A DNA stretch of 64,000 nt from Octopus vulgaris (Eukaryota), in NCBI GenBank assembly GCA_951406725.2, contig OX597837.1, positions 7,998,001 to 8,062,000 on the forward strand. Direction: 5' to 3'. The notes below the pieces were generated by a model. It was not told the DNA's origin. It worked only from the letters and a program-made list of their open reading frames with translations, and ran no database searches. The position numbers were made by a program, and so were the translations under genes. Positions 682 to 58,462 of this stretch are shown piece after piece. Within the stretch, counting starts at the first letter, position 1. The number at the start of each line of letters is the position of its first letter.

Positions 682-1151
682 ATAACAAAAGGGACATTAG
701 CCATTTGAATGTGGCTAGGGACAGGGCAGGGCGGTGGGGGTGTTACTGTTGCATTTAGCCCCAGGCGAACATCAACGTCACCAGAAAGGCTTGACACCAT
801 CACGGCGTCCTCTATCCTGCAAAGGGAGATCATCTACCGAAGAAGCGGAAGCCACATACGGACCCAGGTTTCGAGGTGTTTGCCTCTCGTCAACGTATGG
901 TAGGCATCGCCTTTCGATGAACGACTCTCCATATGTGGCTTCCGCTTCTTCGGTGGATGATCTCCCTTTGCAGGATAGAGGACGCCGTGATGGTGTCAAG
1001 CCTTTCTGGTGACGTTGATGTTCGCCTGGGGCTAAATGAAACAGTAACACCCCCACCGCCCTGCCCTGTCCCTAGCCACATTCAAATGGCTAATGTCCCT
1101 TTTGTTATGGAGCAGTTACTGTCTATATCTCATTTAGAGAATTATTATTGC
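682..1151. mobile_element. (TA)n-flanked fold-back element, probably derived from a Penelope-like element terminal repeat
   Basis: 181-bp inverted arms 682-862 and 928-1108 with few mismatches; 43-nt tail 1109-1151; (TA)n on both sides; hammerhead motif at the loop. Confidence 0.8.
855..899 (-). ncRNA. Type I hammerhead ribozyme motif (U3 variant)
   Basis: Minus strand CAUACG-UUGACGA-GAGG(CAAACA)CCUC-GAAA-CCUGGGUC^CGUAUG: 6-bp stem I, 4-bp stem II, self-complementary stem III, GUC triplet. Confidence 0.8.
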
Positions 1152-1217
1152 TATATATATATATATATATATATATATATATATATATATATGTGTGTGT
1201 GTGTGTGTGTGTGTGTG

Positions 1218-1556
1218 AAGGCTTATGGCTCAGTGCCAAGAGCGTCGAGCTTACGATCGTGAGGTTGTGAGTTCGAATCCCGCACAGGGCTGCGTGTTGT
1301 GTTCTTGAGCAAGACACTATATTTCACGTTGCTGCTCCAGTTCACTCAACTGTAGAAATGAGTTGCGATGTCACAGGTGCCAAGCTGTATCGGACCCTTT
1401 GCCTTTCCCTTGGATAACATGGGTGGCGTGGAGAGGGGAGGCCGGTATGCATGGGCGACTGCTGGTCTTCCATAAACAACCTTGCCCGGACTTGTGACTG
1501 GGAGGGAAACTTTCTAGGTGCAATCCCATGGTCAGTCATGACCGAAGGGAGTCTCA
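1218..1556 (+). mobile_element. tRNA-derived SINE family C, near full length
   Basis: A box tggctcagtg, B box gttcgaatccc, CORE-like ttcttgagcaagacac; homologous copies at 51905, 61693 and 63510. Confidence 0.85.
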
Positions 1557-1727
1557 GAATCATATATATATATATATATATATATATATATATATATATA
1601 TATATATATATATATATATATATATATATGTAAACGTTTATCAATTTGTGTTAGAAGATTTCTGAGGTGAAATCATGTGTTGAAACAGATATTGTTGTAT
1701 TTCGGGATGGTCATTTCTTTTTCTTTT

Positions 1728-1972
1728 TTGCCAAATAAACTCACGCACTACATGTTTGTTCTTCACTCGTTTGTCCATTGTCCGGAAATATTTCCTCTTT
1801 CGTCACACAGAATGGAGTAAGCAGAGCAAGAGCACACACACGAAAACGCAAAGTGTCGCTGAAGAGGTCACAGATGTGTGACGACAGATTTCCGGACAGT
1901 GGACATGAGTTAAAATAAGAACAGTAATAAACGAGTGAAGCGCAAATATATAGCGCGTGTTTATTTGGCAAA
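1728..1972. mobile_element. MITE-like imperfect inverted repeat
   Basis: 1730-1808 (gccaaataaac...gtcacaca) is the diverged reverse complement of 1875-1969 (tgtgtgacg...gtttatttggc). Confidence 0.55.
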
Positions 1973-1986
1973 ATAATAAAAAAAAT

Positions 1987-2076
1987 TGCTGTGTGGTAAG
2001 TAGCTTGCTTACGAACCACATGGTTCCGGGTTCAGTCCCACTGCGTGGCACCTTAGGCAGGTGTCTTCTGCTATAG
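1987..2076 (+). mobile_element. SINE family A, 5' head fragment
   Basis: gctgtgtggtaagtagcttgc...gggttcagtcccactgcgtggcacc. Confidence 0.8.
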
Positions 2077-3419
2077 TTGGTGTAGATATCAAGGATAGCG
2101 TAGGCATATTTAGTATGCGTATTTAGCGGTAGAGAAAACATACTTCACATTCAAGAATCATAAGGTTTATTTCGAAAAAAAGCTCCCAAACCTTTCAGCT
2201 AGAAGTTTTAACTACACCATAACTAACATCGAAATAAATTAATGAATATATTCTAGACAAGGACAAGATCATCTCAAATTGAAGTTATCTTGCCATTTAT
2301 TCATTTGGAATAATAATAATTCTGTGATAATGATAAAAGGTTTAAGAATATGGTTTCAACCGATTCGAAATAGATTACTAACCCAATGTTAGATGCGCTT
2401 ACTTTTGCAAAATATTTTCTGCCAACCACAACATGCGAAATTAGACTTCCTTTGCACGCAAGGAAATCCATTTTATTATTTTTTAACAGCTTCTGGAGAA
2501 TAAAAAAAATAAGTTCTCTCATGTTTCCTTTGATGTCAGCATGGGATCGAAAGATTCTGCCGAAGCTAGTCACATCTTAGGCGCAGATATCTTAAACTAC
2601 TTAAATATCAAATTTCCCTATATTCCCGGATTACCACACACACGCACGCACGCACACATACACACACACACACACACACACACACCACAAATACATACAC
2701 ACACAGATACACACACACATACATCAGGGTATAAGTATATGCTTCTCTATTCTATAATAATAATAATAATAATAATAATAATAATAATAATAATAATAAT
2801 AATGACAATAATGATAATTATAACAACAACAACAGGTAAAATGATGTTGATGATGGTGGTAATGATGATGATGAAAATAATAATAATGATAATAATAATA
2901 ATAGTAATAATAATAATAATAGTAATTTCATATATTTGCCAGAGGGGACCAGATGAGGTGGACATTACAGGAACGGTGAACAGCTTGTGTGTGGGTTCAC
3001 ATAAAAGATAAGAGGAAAGAAGAAGGCGGGTGAAATGAGATAAAAAAGAACTAAAAAAAACGTAACTTATAATAATAATAATAATAATAATAATAATAAT
3101 AATAATAATAATAATAATAATAATAATAACAATAATGAAATTTCCGATATCCTTCAATGTTGGATTATCTGAAACAGGGTTTAGAAATGAGAATTATTTC
3201 GATAAATAGTAGAGTGCCACAGATAAAGGATTCGATATTACTTATAGATTTGGTATTGTCAGAAACAGGAGAATTCTTTAGAAGTTGAATTTGTTTTTTT
3301 ATATCCCCGGGTTGGCCTTGAACAAGCAGAGTTATGATCAAAGATGTCCTTGCCATAATCATCACGTGATAAACACACTCACGCACACACATATACACAT
3401 TCTGATATAAACACACACA

Positions 3420-55915: not shown

Positions 55916-56125
55916 ACATCATCAGGTGTGTTCTTAGACCATATAAGAGGTGGACATTCCTCTTGTCCAGTGGTTTAGTGGAGACATATCCGCTGGGCAG
56001 ATGAGATTCAACAAATGTCTACGACTTTTGTTCTCTAACGCAGAGAATGCTATTACACACACACACAAGCACATATGCGTGTGTGTGTGTGTGTGTGTGT
56101 ATGTGTGTGTGTGTAGTGTATGTAT

Positions 56126-56247
56126 GTCTGTCCCTTTCTGTCGAGGAGCGCAGGCTCGAAGCGGCAAAGACTCCATTTCTCCTGGAATACGCTTGCTTTT
56201 TGTTCCCACAGATGACTCTGTCTTTTGTTTGCTGGACAATTGAACTA
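56126..56247 (+). mobile_element. Diverged P1-related hammerhead remnant
   Basis: 56134-56169 CUUU-CUGUCGA-G-GAGC(GCAG)GCUC-GAAG-CGGC-AAAG. Confidence 0.55.
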
Positions 56248-57087
56248 TACACACACGCACACACACACGCATGCACACACATACACACACACACACACAC
56301 ATATATATATATAAATATAAATACATATATATATATACAAATATACATATATATATATACGCACATATATATACATATATTTATACATACACATATATAC
56401 ATATGTATATATATATATATATATACTTACATATATATATATATATATATATACTTATATATATATATATATATATTGATAGATAGATAAATAAATAGAC
56501 ACTAACATAAATACATAGCTAGATAGATAAACAGGTAGACAGATAGATAGATAGATAGATAGATAGATAGAGAGAGAGAGAGAGAGAGAGATAGATAGAG
56601 AGAGAGAGAGAGATAGAGAAAGAGTGGCTAGAGAGAGAGAGAGAGAGAGAGAGAGAGAGAGAGAGAGAGAGATTAACGGTTCTACACATGCTATTAATAT
56701 TTAGAAATAGCTGAATATTGTGAAATCTCTGGCTCTGAAAGAAAAGCAAAAACAACAAAAAAAGAAGAAATTATCAATATAATGTGTTAAGAATATCTTA
56801 TAGAATTCCATTTAACATTCATAGATAATTATTACCCTCGACTTACACAATGAAATATTGGTGCGATAGGAACTCTTAAATTTGGAGCATTGTCCTAGTG
56901 ACCTCTTACTCACGACAGAAAGACTTGTCGATTCCGAGAAATCGTCGAAAGGTGAAACTCAATAAAAATAAAAATTGTGGAACAGATGGAATTTGGTAAT
57001 AAAATAAAAATTGGCTTAAGCGGATTATGGCACTACTTGGTGACATTCTGTCATTTCACCACCCTAGTATTGGCACTAATGGGGTAT

Positions 57088-57367
57088 ATTCTTTTTCTAC
57101 TCGAGGCACAAGACCCAAAATTTTTGGGGAGGGGGCCAGACGATTAAAGGATGAAAGCTGAAGTCAACCTCGGCGGAATTTGGACTCAGAACATAAAGAC
57201 AGACGAAATACCTATTTCTTTACTGCCCACAAGGGGCTAAACACAGAGAGGACAAACAAGGACAGACAAACTGATTAAGTCGATTATATCGACCGCAGTG
57301 CGTAACTGGTGCTTAATTTATCGACCCCGAAAGGATGAAAGCCAGAGTCGACCCCGGCGGAATTTGA
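57088..57367 (-). mobile_element. SINE family B body, headless
   Basis: cggcggaatttggactcagaac...aaggacagacaaac...cgaccccgaaaggatgaaag. Confidence 0.8.
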
Positions 57368-57954
57368 GAGCAAAAAACAAAAAGAGAGAGAGAGAGAGAG
57401 AGAGAGAGAGAGAGAGAGGGAGGGAGAGTGAAGGGGAGACAGACAGACAGGGAGAGAGAGAGAGAGAGAGAGAGAGAATAGGAAAGAATGAGATTGAGGA
57501 AAGGAAAAAAGGGTAGGTGAGAGAATAAGTGAGAAAAATTTAAATGGAAAGATAGATAGATAGAAAAGGGGAGAGAGAGAGAGAAAGAGAAAGTGAGAGA
57601 GAGAGCAAGACAGCTATTATTCCTTAGCATATTTTAGCATAAATTATGCAAATTACCTTAGCCATAAATATGTTGAACTCTTTTTTGTGTAAGTTTTCGT
57701 CCTTCGGTTACTTGAAATCGGATCAGGTCATTGTCTTGCCGATAACGGCCATTGAACCTCAAACACATATCCAAGACCGTTCTCTAATCTCCAAGCAATA
57801 AGCCTTCTTTTACTTCAATGCTATATCAACTTTGAAGAATTCTTGATTCTTGAGATTATAGCCTCTTCTCATATGGAGCTGGTCTTAAATGGTATTTGGG
57901 AATTAGAATCTATATTCTATAGATGTAGAATCCATCCTTTATGCATAGACGTCG

Positions 57955-58212
57955 CTATGCGGCAAGAAACTTGCTTCCCAACCACATGATTCCGGGTTCA
58001 GTCCCACTGCGTGGCATCTTGGGCAGGTGTCTTCTACTATGGCGTCAGGTCGACCAAAGTCTTGTGAATGGATTTGTCCCTGGACTTAGCGGTTTGGCAA
58101 AAAAACTCCGAGAGAATAAGTACTAGGGTTAATAAGTAAGTCTTGGCGTCGATTTGTTCGACTAAAACCCTTCAAGGAGGTGCTCCCGCATGGCCAGAGT
58201 TTAATGACTGAT
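57955..58212 (+). mobile_element. SINE family A, internally deleted
   Basis: Head and tail are present, the middle is missing. Confidence 0.8.
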
Positions 58213-58260
58213 ACAATATATATATATATATATATATATATATATATATATATATATATA

Positions 58261-58462
58261 ACGGGAAGCTTTATGAAAATAAACAAAAGACGAAGGCAGG
58301 TGGAAAACAAACGAACAATTGTATTAGTATGGCGCTCAGGAAATATAAATAAAACAAGTCTTTAACGTTTCGAGCCTACGCTCTTCAACAGAAAGATACA
58401 CAGAGAGAGAAAAACACAGAAAGGAGAGAAAAAAAATGCGTGCAGTAGCTAACGAATCAACA
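58261..58462 (-). mobile_element. Family P1 hammerhead-bearing insert
   Basis: 58359-58396 minus strand UCUUU-CUGUUGA-A-GAGC(GUAG)GCUC-GAAA-CGUU-AAAGA. Confidence 0.78.

What the first reader, a model, noticed from the sequence alone, without database searches (positions are those of the whole stretch)
682..58462. A community of ORF-less, (TA)n-targeting, hammerhead-ribozyme fold-back elements
Seen: at least six dissimilar short sequence families (682-1151; 7839-8016/21590-21744; 17084-17284/43439-43556; P1 at 4016, 32096, 43596, 58261; 42108/48378; 50845) sit in or beside (TA)n tracts (4016 is the exception) and carry a type I hammerhead fold with a palindromic stem III. Several share one architecture: (TA)n, short arm, loop, long arm with a 40-70 nt tail, (TA)n. 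Established: minimal type I hammerheads with palindromic stem III (active as dimers) and inverted terminal segments are hallmarks of Penelope-like retroelements. Inference: these are non-autonomous or heavily truncated products of several TA-targeting Penelope-like families, with each arm primed from one strand of a nicked (TA)n. That would make self-cleaving-RNA elements a major, easily overlooked component of this genome's microsatellite sea. No RT or GIY-YIG ORF is present in the window.
Basis: partly seen in the sequence, partly recalled or inferred. Interest (0 to 1): 0.88.

Follow-up and report, generated by a model that had tools for sequence, protein, structure and literature searches.

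The report
Penelope retrotransposon stubs plus one retrozyme
Five of the six short hammerhead-bearing repeat families are the cut-off tail ends of ordinary protein-coding Penelope-like jumping genes that sit in TA repeats, while the sixth is a protein-free 358-base tandem repeat whose insertions carry the same end marks and so was likely copied into the genome by those genes' enzymes.

Summary
The hammerhead folds, TA flanks and two-arm insertions are real: 6 descriptor hits against 0.035 in shuffles. 'ORF-less' is mostly wrong. Extending genomic copies joins five of the six families (58261, 17084, 7839, 48378, 50845) to RT/GIY-YIG ORFs of Neptune-, Hydra- and Nematis-like Penelope elements. 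These window copies are 5'-truncated stubs, and their TA targeting, inverted arm and 'tail' are published.

Only family A (682-1151) is ORF-less: a 358-360-nt hammerhead monomer, i.e. a non-LTR retrozyme. Its insertions show the full Penelope footprint:
- ends in (TA)n;
- two fixed 3' ends about 43 nt apart, one per arm in 47 of 47 complete two-arm insertions;
- 5' ends spread evenly;
- arms up to 10.8 units long that read through the ribozyme site.

This supports the published hypothesis that Penelope enzymes mobilise retrozymes, and suggests the arrays arrive ready-made. Unresolved: circular versus multimeric template, the partner element, and cleavage activity. Two named copies lack a complete hammerhead, and several cores are non-canonical. 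'Major component' is overstated (4.6% of the window). The scan has noted similar stubs and Penelope-style tandem hitch-hikers in other genomes.

The parts
682..929 (-). Family A (retrozyme) short arm: 67 nt upstream of the hammerhead stem III plus monomer positions 1-181; its 3' end runs into (TA)n at 669-684
855..899 (-). Type I hammerhead of family A (U3 variant core, 6-bp stem I, 4-bp stem II, stem III palindromic through G.U pairs)
   Evidence: (RF00163 26.7 bits)
928..1151 (+). Family A long arm, monomer positions 1-224, including the 43-nt tail 1109-1151; ends in (TA)20
2386..2624 (+). Frameshifted RT remnant of a Hydra-type Penelope-like element (44-53% identity to the family D protein)
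4016..4164 (-). P1-like (Neptune-type) 3' end, degenerate minimal hammerhead, not in TA; its own ORF was not traced
7839..8016 (+). Family B: 3' end (short-end arm) of a Hydra-like element; canonical core at 7899, long stem II
17084..17284 (-). Family C: 3' end of a Neptune-like element with a 1.7-3.6-kb CA/CATA-rich 3' region; minimal hammerhead with U4C
21590..21744 (+). Older B-like 3' end (about 81% identity), degenerate hammerhead
31088..31250 (-).
32096..32236 (+). P1-like 3' end between TA tracts, core damaged; its own ORF was not traced
42108..42247 (+). D-like two-arm stub (95% identity) that starts downstream of the cleavage site; no hammerhead
43439..43556 (+). C-like 3' end truncated inside stem II; no complete hammerhead; tail-to-tail with 43596 across one TA tract
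43596..43770 (-). P1-like 3' end, A6C core; its own ORF was not traced
48378..48655 (-). Family D: two-arm stub of a very young Hydra-clade element (3.4-kb unit, about 710-aa ORF); hammerheads at 48515(-) and 48585(+), 66-nt tail
50845..51157 (-). Family E: two-arm stub of a Nematis-like element (ORFs of 839-1025 aa stop to stop); hammerhead at 51032(+) with a natural G3-C8 core pair, 57-nt tail
58261..58463 (-). Family P1: 3' end, 100% identical over 203 nt to the end of a Neptune-like element with a 717-aa stop-to-stop RT plus GIY-YIG ORF; minimal hammerhead with A6U

Best explanation
Five of the six families are 5'-truncated 3' ends of protein-coding Penelope-like retrotransposons that sit in (TA)n, and the sixth (682-1151) is an ORF-less 358-nt hammerhead repeat that is likely inserted in trans by the same kind of enzyme. 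Proposed mechanism: a Penelope RT/GIY-YIG protein nicks both strands of a (TA)n tract and primes reverse transcription from each free 3' end, at two fixed internal sites on the element RNA. This step was shown in vitro for another PLE (PMC11167929) and is inferred here. The stretch between the two start sites is the tail (shown here as two fixed ends 43-100 nt apart in A, B, D and E). Each cDNA stops at a variable point, and the two are joined head to head through 0-10 nt of overlap (shown for A2), giving short arm, loop, long arm. Stubs that stop early look ORF-less. For family A the template is uncleaved multimeric or circular RNA (inferred), because arms read through up to ten ribozyme sites and their 5' ends do not pile up at the cleavage site. 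The tandem arrays therefore most likely arrive ready-made. The hammerheads would act as dimers and only weakly (inferred, untested).
For: ORF linkage. P1: 717-aa ORF with RVT_1 (E 7e-8) and GIY-YIG (E 0.004) hits, tandem unit about 4.5 kb. D: three uninterrupted 727-aa frames in 3.4-kb tandem units with RWK, DKT and CxCx5C motifs. B: CxCx5C plus GIY-YIG fragments directly upstream in two loci and an RT fragment in one. E: end present in 19 of 20 loci found with its endonuclease, ORFs up to 1025 aa. C: Neptune-like ORF pieces upstream on the same strand in 5 of 8 extended loci. Family A. Period 357-360 nt and longest Met-ORF 82 aa in A1, 51 aa in A2. Of 28 A1 loci, 21 are two-armed, all with one short and one long end; 26 of 39 A2 loci are likewise, none has two equal ends, and 38 of 39 have TA on at least one side. 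Arms reach 3,891 nt. The 67 A2 5' ends are uniform round the monomer (KS p 0.47). Units are more alike within a locus than between loci (1.3% vs 3.6% in A1; 0.67% vs 1.08% in A2). Stems covary across A lineages: 90% of cells paired, 6 of 15 pairs with double-sided change, covariation score above 500 of 500 shuffles. The circular monomer folds at z = -3.2 on the sense strand and -1.2 on the antisense.
Against: No partner element for A was found. Only best-scoring candidates were scored (40 per DNA search) with 1.5-kb flanks, so a rare ORF-bearing A-type element could have been missed. ORFs were not traced for 4016, 32096, 43596, 43439 or 21590; these are assigned by 73-85% similarity to traced families. 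B's ORF was seen only in broken pieces. Clade labels rest on motifs, not a tree, and D has no Pfam hit at E 0.1. Cores deviate in A (U3; C4 and loss of the 10.1-11.1 pair in A2), P1 (A6U), C (U4C) and D (A.A at 10.1-11.1), so some may not cleave. One of 9 long arrays (L341) has mixed units, which a single circular template cannot give. Three A1 arms, the window's included, start within 3 nt of the cleavage site. The covariation test used 8 related sequences that I chose, so relatedness inflates it.
Confidence: 0.85

Rival explanations
1. All six families are dedicated non-autonomous, ORF-less ribozyme elements.
For: The window copies are short and hold no intact ORF. In family C all but one of the 30 best hits begin within about 15 nt upstream of the same point (by eye), and E has a preferred 5' stop, as a short master element would give.
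Against: Longer copies of P1, B, C, D and E run without a break into PLE ORFs. The window's 58261 and 48378 copies are 100% identical to the ends of ORF-bearing elements.
Confidence: 0.07
2. Family A arrays are satellite-like: a single terminal repeat inserted once and was then amplified locally by unequal crossover, as discussed in the 2026 retrozyme preprint.
For: Units within a locus are more alike than between loci, which concerted evolution also gives. The mixed array L341 could be a recombination product. The model is stated in the preprint's Discussion.
Against: The head-to-tail monomer junction is the same at all loci on many contigs. Subfamily A2 copies are 99-100% identical genome-wide yet already reach 10.8 units. 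Both inverted arms hold multi-unit runs, with fixed TA-flanked ends and random 5' ends.
Confidence: 0.1
3. Family A is copied from a linear, uncleaved multimeric transcript of an existing array, not from a circular RNA; the ribozyme plays little part in mobility.
For: L341 mixes variants that are fixed in other arrays. In L342 both arms end at nearly the same monomer position in units that share three variants. Hammerhead mutants do not affect PLE insertion in vitro (PMC11167929). The youngest subfamily has the weakest-looking core.
Against: Seven of 9 long arrays are homogeneous apart from scattered substitutions, and L342 nearly so. Stem I and III pairing is kept across A lineages. Animal retrozymes are reported as abundant circles (PMC7229834 passages). 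This is a sub-case of the best explanation, not an alternative to PLE-driven insertion.
Confidence: 0.45
4. The fold-backs are TA-targeting MITEs or other DNA-transposon derivatives, and the hammerheads are coincidental.
For: Inverted ends and TA flanks are also typical of Tc1/mariner MITEs (recalled).
Against: Arms vary in length from copy to copy, are asymmetric by a fixed tail, and lead into RT ORFs or tandem monomers. Hammerhead hits far exceed shuffles. No transposase search was run, but none of the long ORFs printed next to element ends was a transposase.
Confidence: 0.02

Closest known systems
Hydra-clade Penelope-like elements (Craig et al. 2021, PMC8557442; section 11 and passages read)
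   Same: Family D has RWK, DKT, a CxCx5C linker, a C-terminal endonuclease region, a hammerhead and (TA)n insertion. B and F share the linker or endonuclease similarity.
   Different: The D unit is 3.4 kb (the paper says generally under 3 kb) because of a 1.2-kb 3' region. Its hammerhead has an A.A mismatch at 10.1-11.1. F's short end goes into (TAA)n.
Neptune- and Nematis-clade PLEs with minimal hammerheads (Cervera and de la Pena 2014, PMC4209133, parts 1-2 of 4 read; Craig 2021)
   Same: P1 has DKG, a CX2-5CxxC linker and GIY-YIG. P1, C and E have an extra nucleotide after A9, palindromic 15.2-16.2 positions, and are mostly single truncated copies.
   Different: Core variants A6U (P1), U4C (C) and a natural G3-C8 swap (E). 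C carries 1.7-3.6 kb of CA/CATA-type repeat as its 3' region. The Nematis label for E rests on motifs partly recalled from memory, with no tree.
Animal non-LTR retrozymes (Cervera and de la Pena 2020, PMC7229834, passages; Li, Clavereau and Pollet 2026 preprint 10.64898/2026.07.22.740005, part 1, passages and Discussion)
   Same: Family A is a 356-360-nt non-coding tandem monomer with one type I hammerhead per unit, is strongly self-paired, and coexists with PLEs.
   Different: Here the arrays are short, dispersed, (TA)n-targeted, two-armed and tailed like PLE insertions. The passages I read propose PLE mobilisation from co-occurrence and pLTR homology and describe no such footprint. Circular RNA was not shown here, and no homologous pLTR partner was found.
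PAc, the Anolis Poseidon element, in vitro (Frangieh et al. 2024, PMC11167929, parts 1-2 of 4 read)
   Same: Both DNA strands are nicked and extended, two internal RT start sites bound the tail, and uncleaved RNA is the substrate.
   Different: PAc is autonomous and prefers ATT. The genomic data here add that the two start sites are used one per arm in a single insertion, also on an ORF-less passenger.

Membership tests
Endonuclease-bearing Penelope-like elements (P1, B, C, D, E) | Single ORF with RT followed by a GIY-YIG endonuclease upstream of the terminal repeat | tested here: met
   Uninterrupted frames for P1, D and E; broken pieces for B and C. D lacks Pfam hits but aligns with the P1 RT (E 5e-5).
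Endonuclease-bearing Penelope-like elements (P1, B, C, D, E) | Partial tandems (pLTR), inverted 5'-truncated copy, optional tail | tested here: met
   Tandems for D and P1. Inverted arms and two 3' ends for B, D and E. P1 and C show one main end.
Endonuclease-bearing Penelope-like elements (P1, B, C, D, E) | RT groups with PLE clades in a phylogeny | not tested
   No reference PLE proteins were fetched; clades were assigned from motifs.
Hydra clade (family D) | RWK, DKT, CxCx5C linker, hammerhead, (TA)n target | tested here: met
   Absence of the CCHH motif was judged by eye.
Non-LTR retrozyme (family A) | 150-450-bp tandem non-coding monomer with a type I hammerhead in each unit | tested here: met
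   358, 360 and about 356-360 nt monomers; longest Met-ORFs 82 and 51 aa in A1 and A2.
Non-LTR retrozyme (family A) | No linked autonomous ORF | tested here: met
   In none of 28 A1, 10 further A1 and 39 A2 loci, nor 30 A3 loci, did the monomer run into a PLE ORF. Samples of best hits only; no tblastn was run on the A2 loci.
Non-LTR retrozyme (family A) | Expressed and processed into circular RNA | not testable with these tools
   Only assembled contigs of runs guessed to be RNA were available.
Type I hammerhead ribozyme | Three-stem fold with covarying helices | tested here: met
   (A lineages); B, D, E and F keep pairing with unrelated stem sequences.
Type I hammerhead ribozyme | Consensus catalytic core and G10.1-C11.1 pair | tested here: inconclusive
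   Fully met only in B. F and D have the consensus core but lack G10.1-C11.1. A1 has U3, A2 and C have C4, P1 has U6, E has G3-C8. Some such variants keep activity (PMC3088659 passages).
Type I hammerhead ribozyme | Self-cleavage | not testable with these tools
   Needs in vitro assay.
MITE / DNA transposon derivative | Fixed symmetric terminal inverted repeats and fixed length | tested here: not met
   Arm lengths 37-3,891 nt, asymmetric ends.

The most novel reading that the evidence does not exclude
Family A is a viroid-sized circular RNA parasite that a Penelope RT dimer copies by rolling circle, up to eleven turns, from two fixed start sites into the two strands of one nicked (TA)n tract. 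It would be the first footprint-level proof that animal retrozymes are inserted by Penelope enzymes as ready-made arrays. With a 99%-identical subfamily and intact candidate helpers (D, E, P1) in the same genome, the helper can be identified in a test tube.
Probability: 0.4. Interest if true: 0.68.

Novelty: new member of a known kind. Interest (0 to 1): 0.45.

Why it matters
Most of the finding is an ordinary but under-annotated case: Penelope-like elements of three clades leave short stubs in TA tracts that look like small fold-back elements. Family A is the part worth keeping. How animal retrozymes move is still stated as open. Here a young retrozyme carries the Penelope-specific two-start-site signature in 47 of 47 complete two-arm insertions, next to intact candidate helper ORFs, which makes the question directly testable with the published in vitro assay. 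Two side results may interest specialists: a natural G3-C8 hammerhead core, and a Neptune-like family that carries kilobases of CA/CATA-type repeat with it and so would spread microsatellite-like DNA.

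Tried and rejected
Whole-window Rfam scan: the listed top 150 of 756 matches were microsatellite or hairpin noise, mostly miRNA families, and it was not informative.

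Expression: no holder is on record as RNA. Contigs from runs guessed to be RNA lie on family A but cannot show strand, ends, level or circularity; not used as evidence.

Search for A's partner: short-word BLAST of the A monomer against all fetched loci gave only more A-like lineages and AT-rich noise. Following lineage A3 genome-wide gave another ORF-less tandem family. A ends next to E ends in two loci are most simply two insertions in one TA tract.

The 82-codon ORF in A1 is not kept in A2; rejected as functional.

A first descriptor run missed D and F because stem III was capped too short; it was widened, so the descriptor is post hoc.

The first TA count used a loose pattern and was replaced.

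Long CA/CATA tracts of the window did not match unique anchors of the C-family 3' region, so they are not shown to be PLE-derived.

Candidate cores at 1006, 11557, 27521, 45744, 52436, 58605 and 31713 failed the full descriptor.

Literature: searches listed no paper describing two-armed, tailed, (TA)n-targeted retrozyme arrays, and searches listed none reporting a natural G3-C8 core. Searches (octopus PLEs; repeat carriage by PLEs) gave nothing specific. The library lacks most subscription papers and Repbase, and I read no supplements, where such families may be listed.

Full report
Setting. The window lies in a 2.8-Gb animal assembly, rich in microsatellites and SINE-like repeats. The best named relative of one element protein is labelled Octopus vulgaris, at 54% identity; an octopus host is likely but is my inference. 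I call the families A (682-1151), B (7839, 21590), C (17084, 43439), P1 (4016, 32096, 43596, 58261), D (42108, 48378) and E (50845).

Observation. A type I hammerhead descriptor with a dimer-palindromic stem III finds 6 sites in the window against a mean of 0.035 in 200 shuffles; with a closed non-palindromic stem III allowed it finds 7 against 0.045. The descriptor was tuned on the examples. Five of the 12 named copies pass, five are degenerate, and two (42108, 43439) are truncated too far to hold a hammerhead. Rfam supports A only, below its gathering score. Among the 30 best genomic hits per family, 15-30 end in (TA)4+ against a 3.0% background. The segments cover 4.6% of the window and abut 14 of 104 (TA)8+ tracts.

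Five families are stubs of coding elements. P1: the 58261 copy is identical over 203 nt to the end of an element with a 717-aa RT plus GIY-YIG frame, DKG and a CX2-5CxxC linker, in 4.5-kb tandems, i.e. Neptune-like. D: the 48378 copy is identical to the end of a 3.4-kb unit with an uninterrupted ORF of about 710 aa in three loci, bearing the RWK, DKT and CxCx5C marks of the Hydra clade. B runs into a CxCx5C plus GIY-YIG fragment in two loci and a broken RT in one. E lies about 1 kb downstream of a GIY-YIG domain in 19 of 20 loci, with frames up to 1025 aa, Nematis-like by partly recalled motifs. C looked like a short element, since nearly all top hits start at one point. A search with its upstream extension, however, led through 1.7-3.6 kb of CA/CATA-rich sequence to Neptune-like ORF pieces in 5 of 8 extended loci. 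The copies at 4016, 32096, 43596, 43439 and 21590 are 73-85% similar sister families whose ORFs I did not trace. A missed seventh family, F (31088-31250), is Hydra-type and ends in (TAA)n or (TA)n. A decayed Hydra-type RT fragment lies at 2386-2624. All this matches print: (TA)n targets, inverted 5'-truncated copies and tails (PMC8557442, passages and section 11; PMC3846280, passages), and minimal hammerheads mostly as single truncated copies (PMC4209133, parts 1-2 of 4).

Family A is different. Its copies continue upstream not into an ORF but into more of the same 358-nt monomer. A second subfamily, A2 (360 nt, 87% identical to A1), is 99-100% identical across many contigs. An older one, A3, is also tandem and ORF-less. 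The insertions follow one rule. Of 28 distinct A1 loci (30 fetched, 2 duplicates dropped), 21 have two head-to-head arms, each time one ending near position 181 and the other near 224. Of 39 A2 loci, 26 do the same, 2 have an irregular inverted arm and 11 were scored as single arms; none has two equal ends. The queries contained the long end, so one long end per locus is favoured by selection, but the partner arm was never long in 47 cases. Arms run from 37 to 3,891 nt (10.8 units), junctions mostly overlap by 0-10 nt, and the 67 A2 5' ends are uniform round the monomer (KS p 0.47). Reverse transcription therefore passes the ribozyme site repeatedly. Units are more alike within than between loci. 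Across 8 chosen hammerheads of the A lineages, stems I-III keep pairing with double-sided changes, and the centre of stem III switches among self-complementary dinucleotides. An exact-pattern count gave 75 hammerhead copies for the window's subfamily at up to 1 mismatch; first-look candidate counts for A1, A2 and A3 were 1,682, 959 and 2,682, which are not copy numbers.

Mechanism. In vitro, a Penelope protein nicks and extends both DNA strands, starts at two internal RNA sites whose interval is the tail, and does not need hammerhead cleavage (PMC11167929, parts 1-2 of 4). Applied to A, it means an ORF-less RNA is handled in trans by such a protein (inferred; the helper is unknown). Whether the template is a circle or a linear multimer is open. 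Seven of nine long arrays are homogeneous, but L341 mixes variants fixed in other arrays, and in L342 both arms end in units sharing three variants. Cleavage is untested, and the youngest A subfamily has the least canonical core.

Comparison and novelty. A meets the sequence definition of an animal non-LTR retrozyme; circular RNA could not be tested. PLE mobilisation of retrozymes was proposed in PMC7229834 (passages) and argued from pLTR homology in the 2026 preprint, which leaves the mechanism open and also discusses local amplification by unequal crossover (part 1, passages, Discussion). Searches listed no description of retrozyme arrays with the two-start-site footprint; supplements and Repbase were not seen. 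Non-autonomous PLEs with tandem insertions are known in Chlamydomonas. A repeat annotation of O. vulgaris lists active Penelope families and does not use the word retrozyme (PMC13282606, passages). This scan has noted comparable stubs and Penelope-style tandem passengers in other genomes (unchecked notes).

Verdict. Observation partly confirmed; interpretation partly supported. Mostly new members of known PLE clades, plus one retrozyme superfamily whose insertion footprint makes an open question testable. Interest 0.45.

Noticed in passing
L279, L280, L283, L285, L286 (family C upstream): A Neptune-like family carries 1.7-3.6 kb of degenerate CA/CATA repeat between its ORF and its hammerhead end, with shared unique anchors on different contigs; P1 has a shorter C/T- and CA-rich region. 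Such elements would spread microsatellite-like DNA by retrotransposition.
   Followed up: partly
window 51032-51038 (+), family E: The hammerhead core has G3 and C8 in 56 of 69 pattern matches, the swapped form of the C3-G8 tertiary pair that partly rescues activity in engineered mutants. Searches listed no natural case.
   Followed up: partly
window 17284 and L151-L180: Family C copies share a strong 5' stop point about 200 nt from the 3' end although the element is much longer; E and P1 show weaker preferred stops. Cause unexplained (transcription start or RT pause).
   Followed up: partly
window 41957-42034: A 78-nt palindrome after (TA)11 resembles the 3' end of another hammerhead-bearing TA-flanked family seen in L124 (by eye).
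   Followed up: no
window 53215-53385: Another TA-flanked imperfect fold-back without a hammerhead, possibly a very short stub of a further family.
   Followed up: no
window 56100-56230: An additional decayed P1-like end with a damaged hammerhead.
   Followed up: partly
window 6261-6900, 12523-12748, 20519-20905, 52151-52389, 57146-57367: An abundant SINE-like family occurs in partial tandems (period 183) and in an inverted pair at 6261-6900; one copy ends in (TAA)22. It has no hammerhead and no ARAGORN tRNA. It might be another Penelope-style passenger.
   Followed up: no
window 4170-4830: Decayed gag-like frame with a CCHC zinc knuckle, probably an old LTR-retrotransposon remnant.
   Followed up: no
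L056, L262, L138, L045, L096, L195, L232: Several further hammerhead families turned up in flanks of fetched loci, some with two-arm structure, so the genome holds more PLE or retrozyme families than the window shows.
   Followed up: no
family F, L260-L278: The short end goes into (TAA)n where the element's own next bases are TAA-like, and the long end into (TA)n, hinting that short template-primer pairing influences which repeat each end uses.
   Followed up: no
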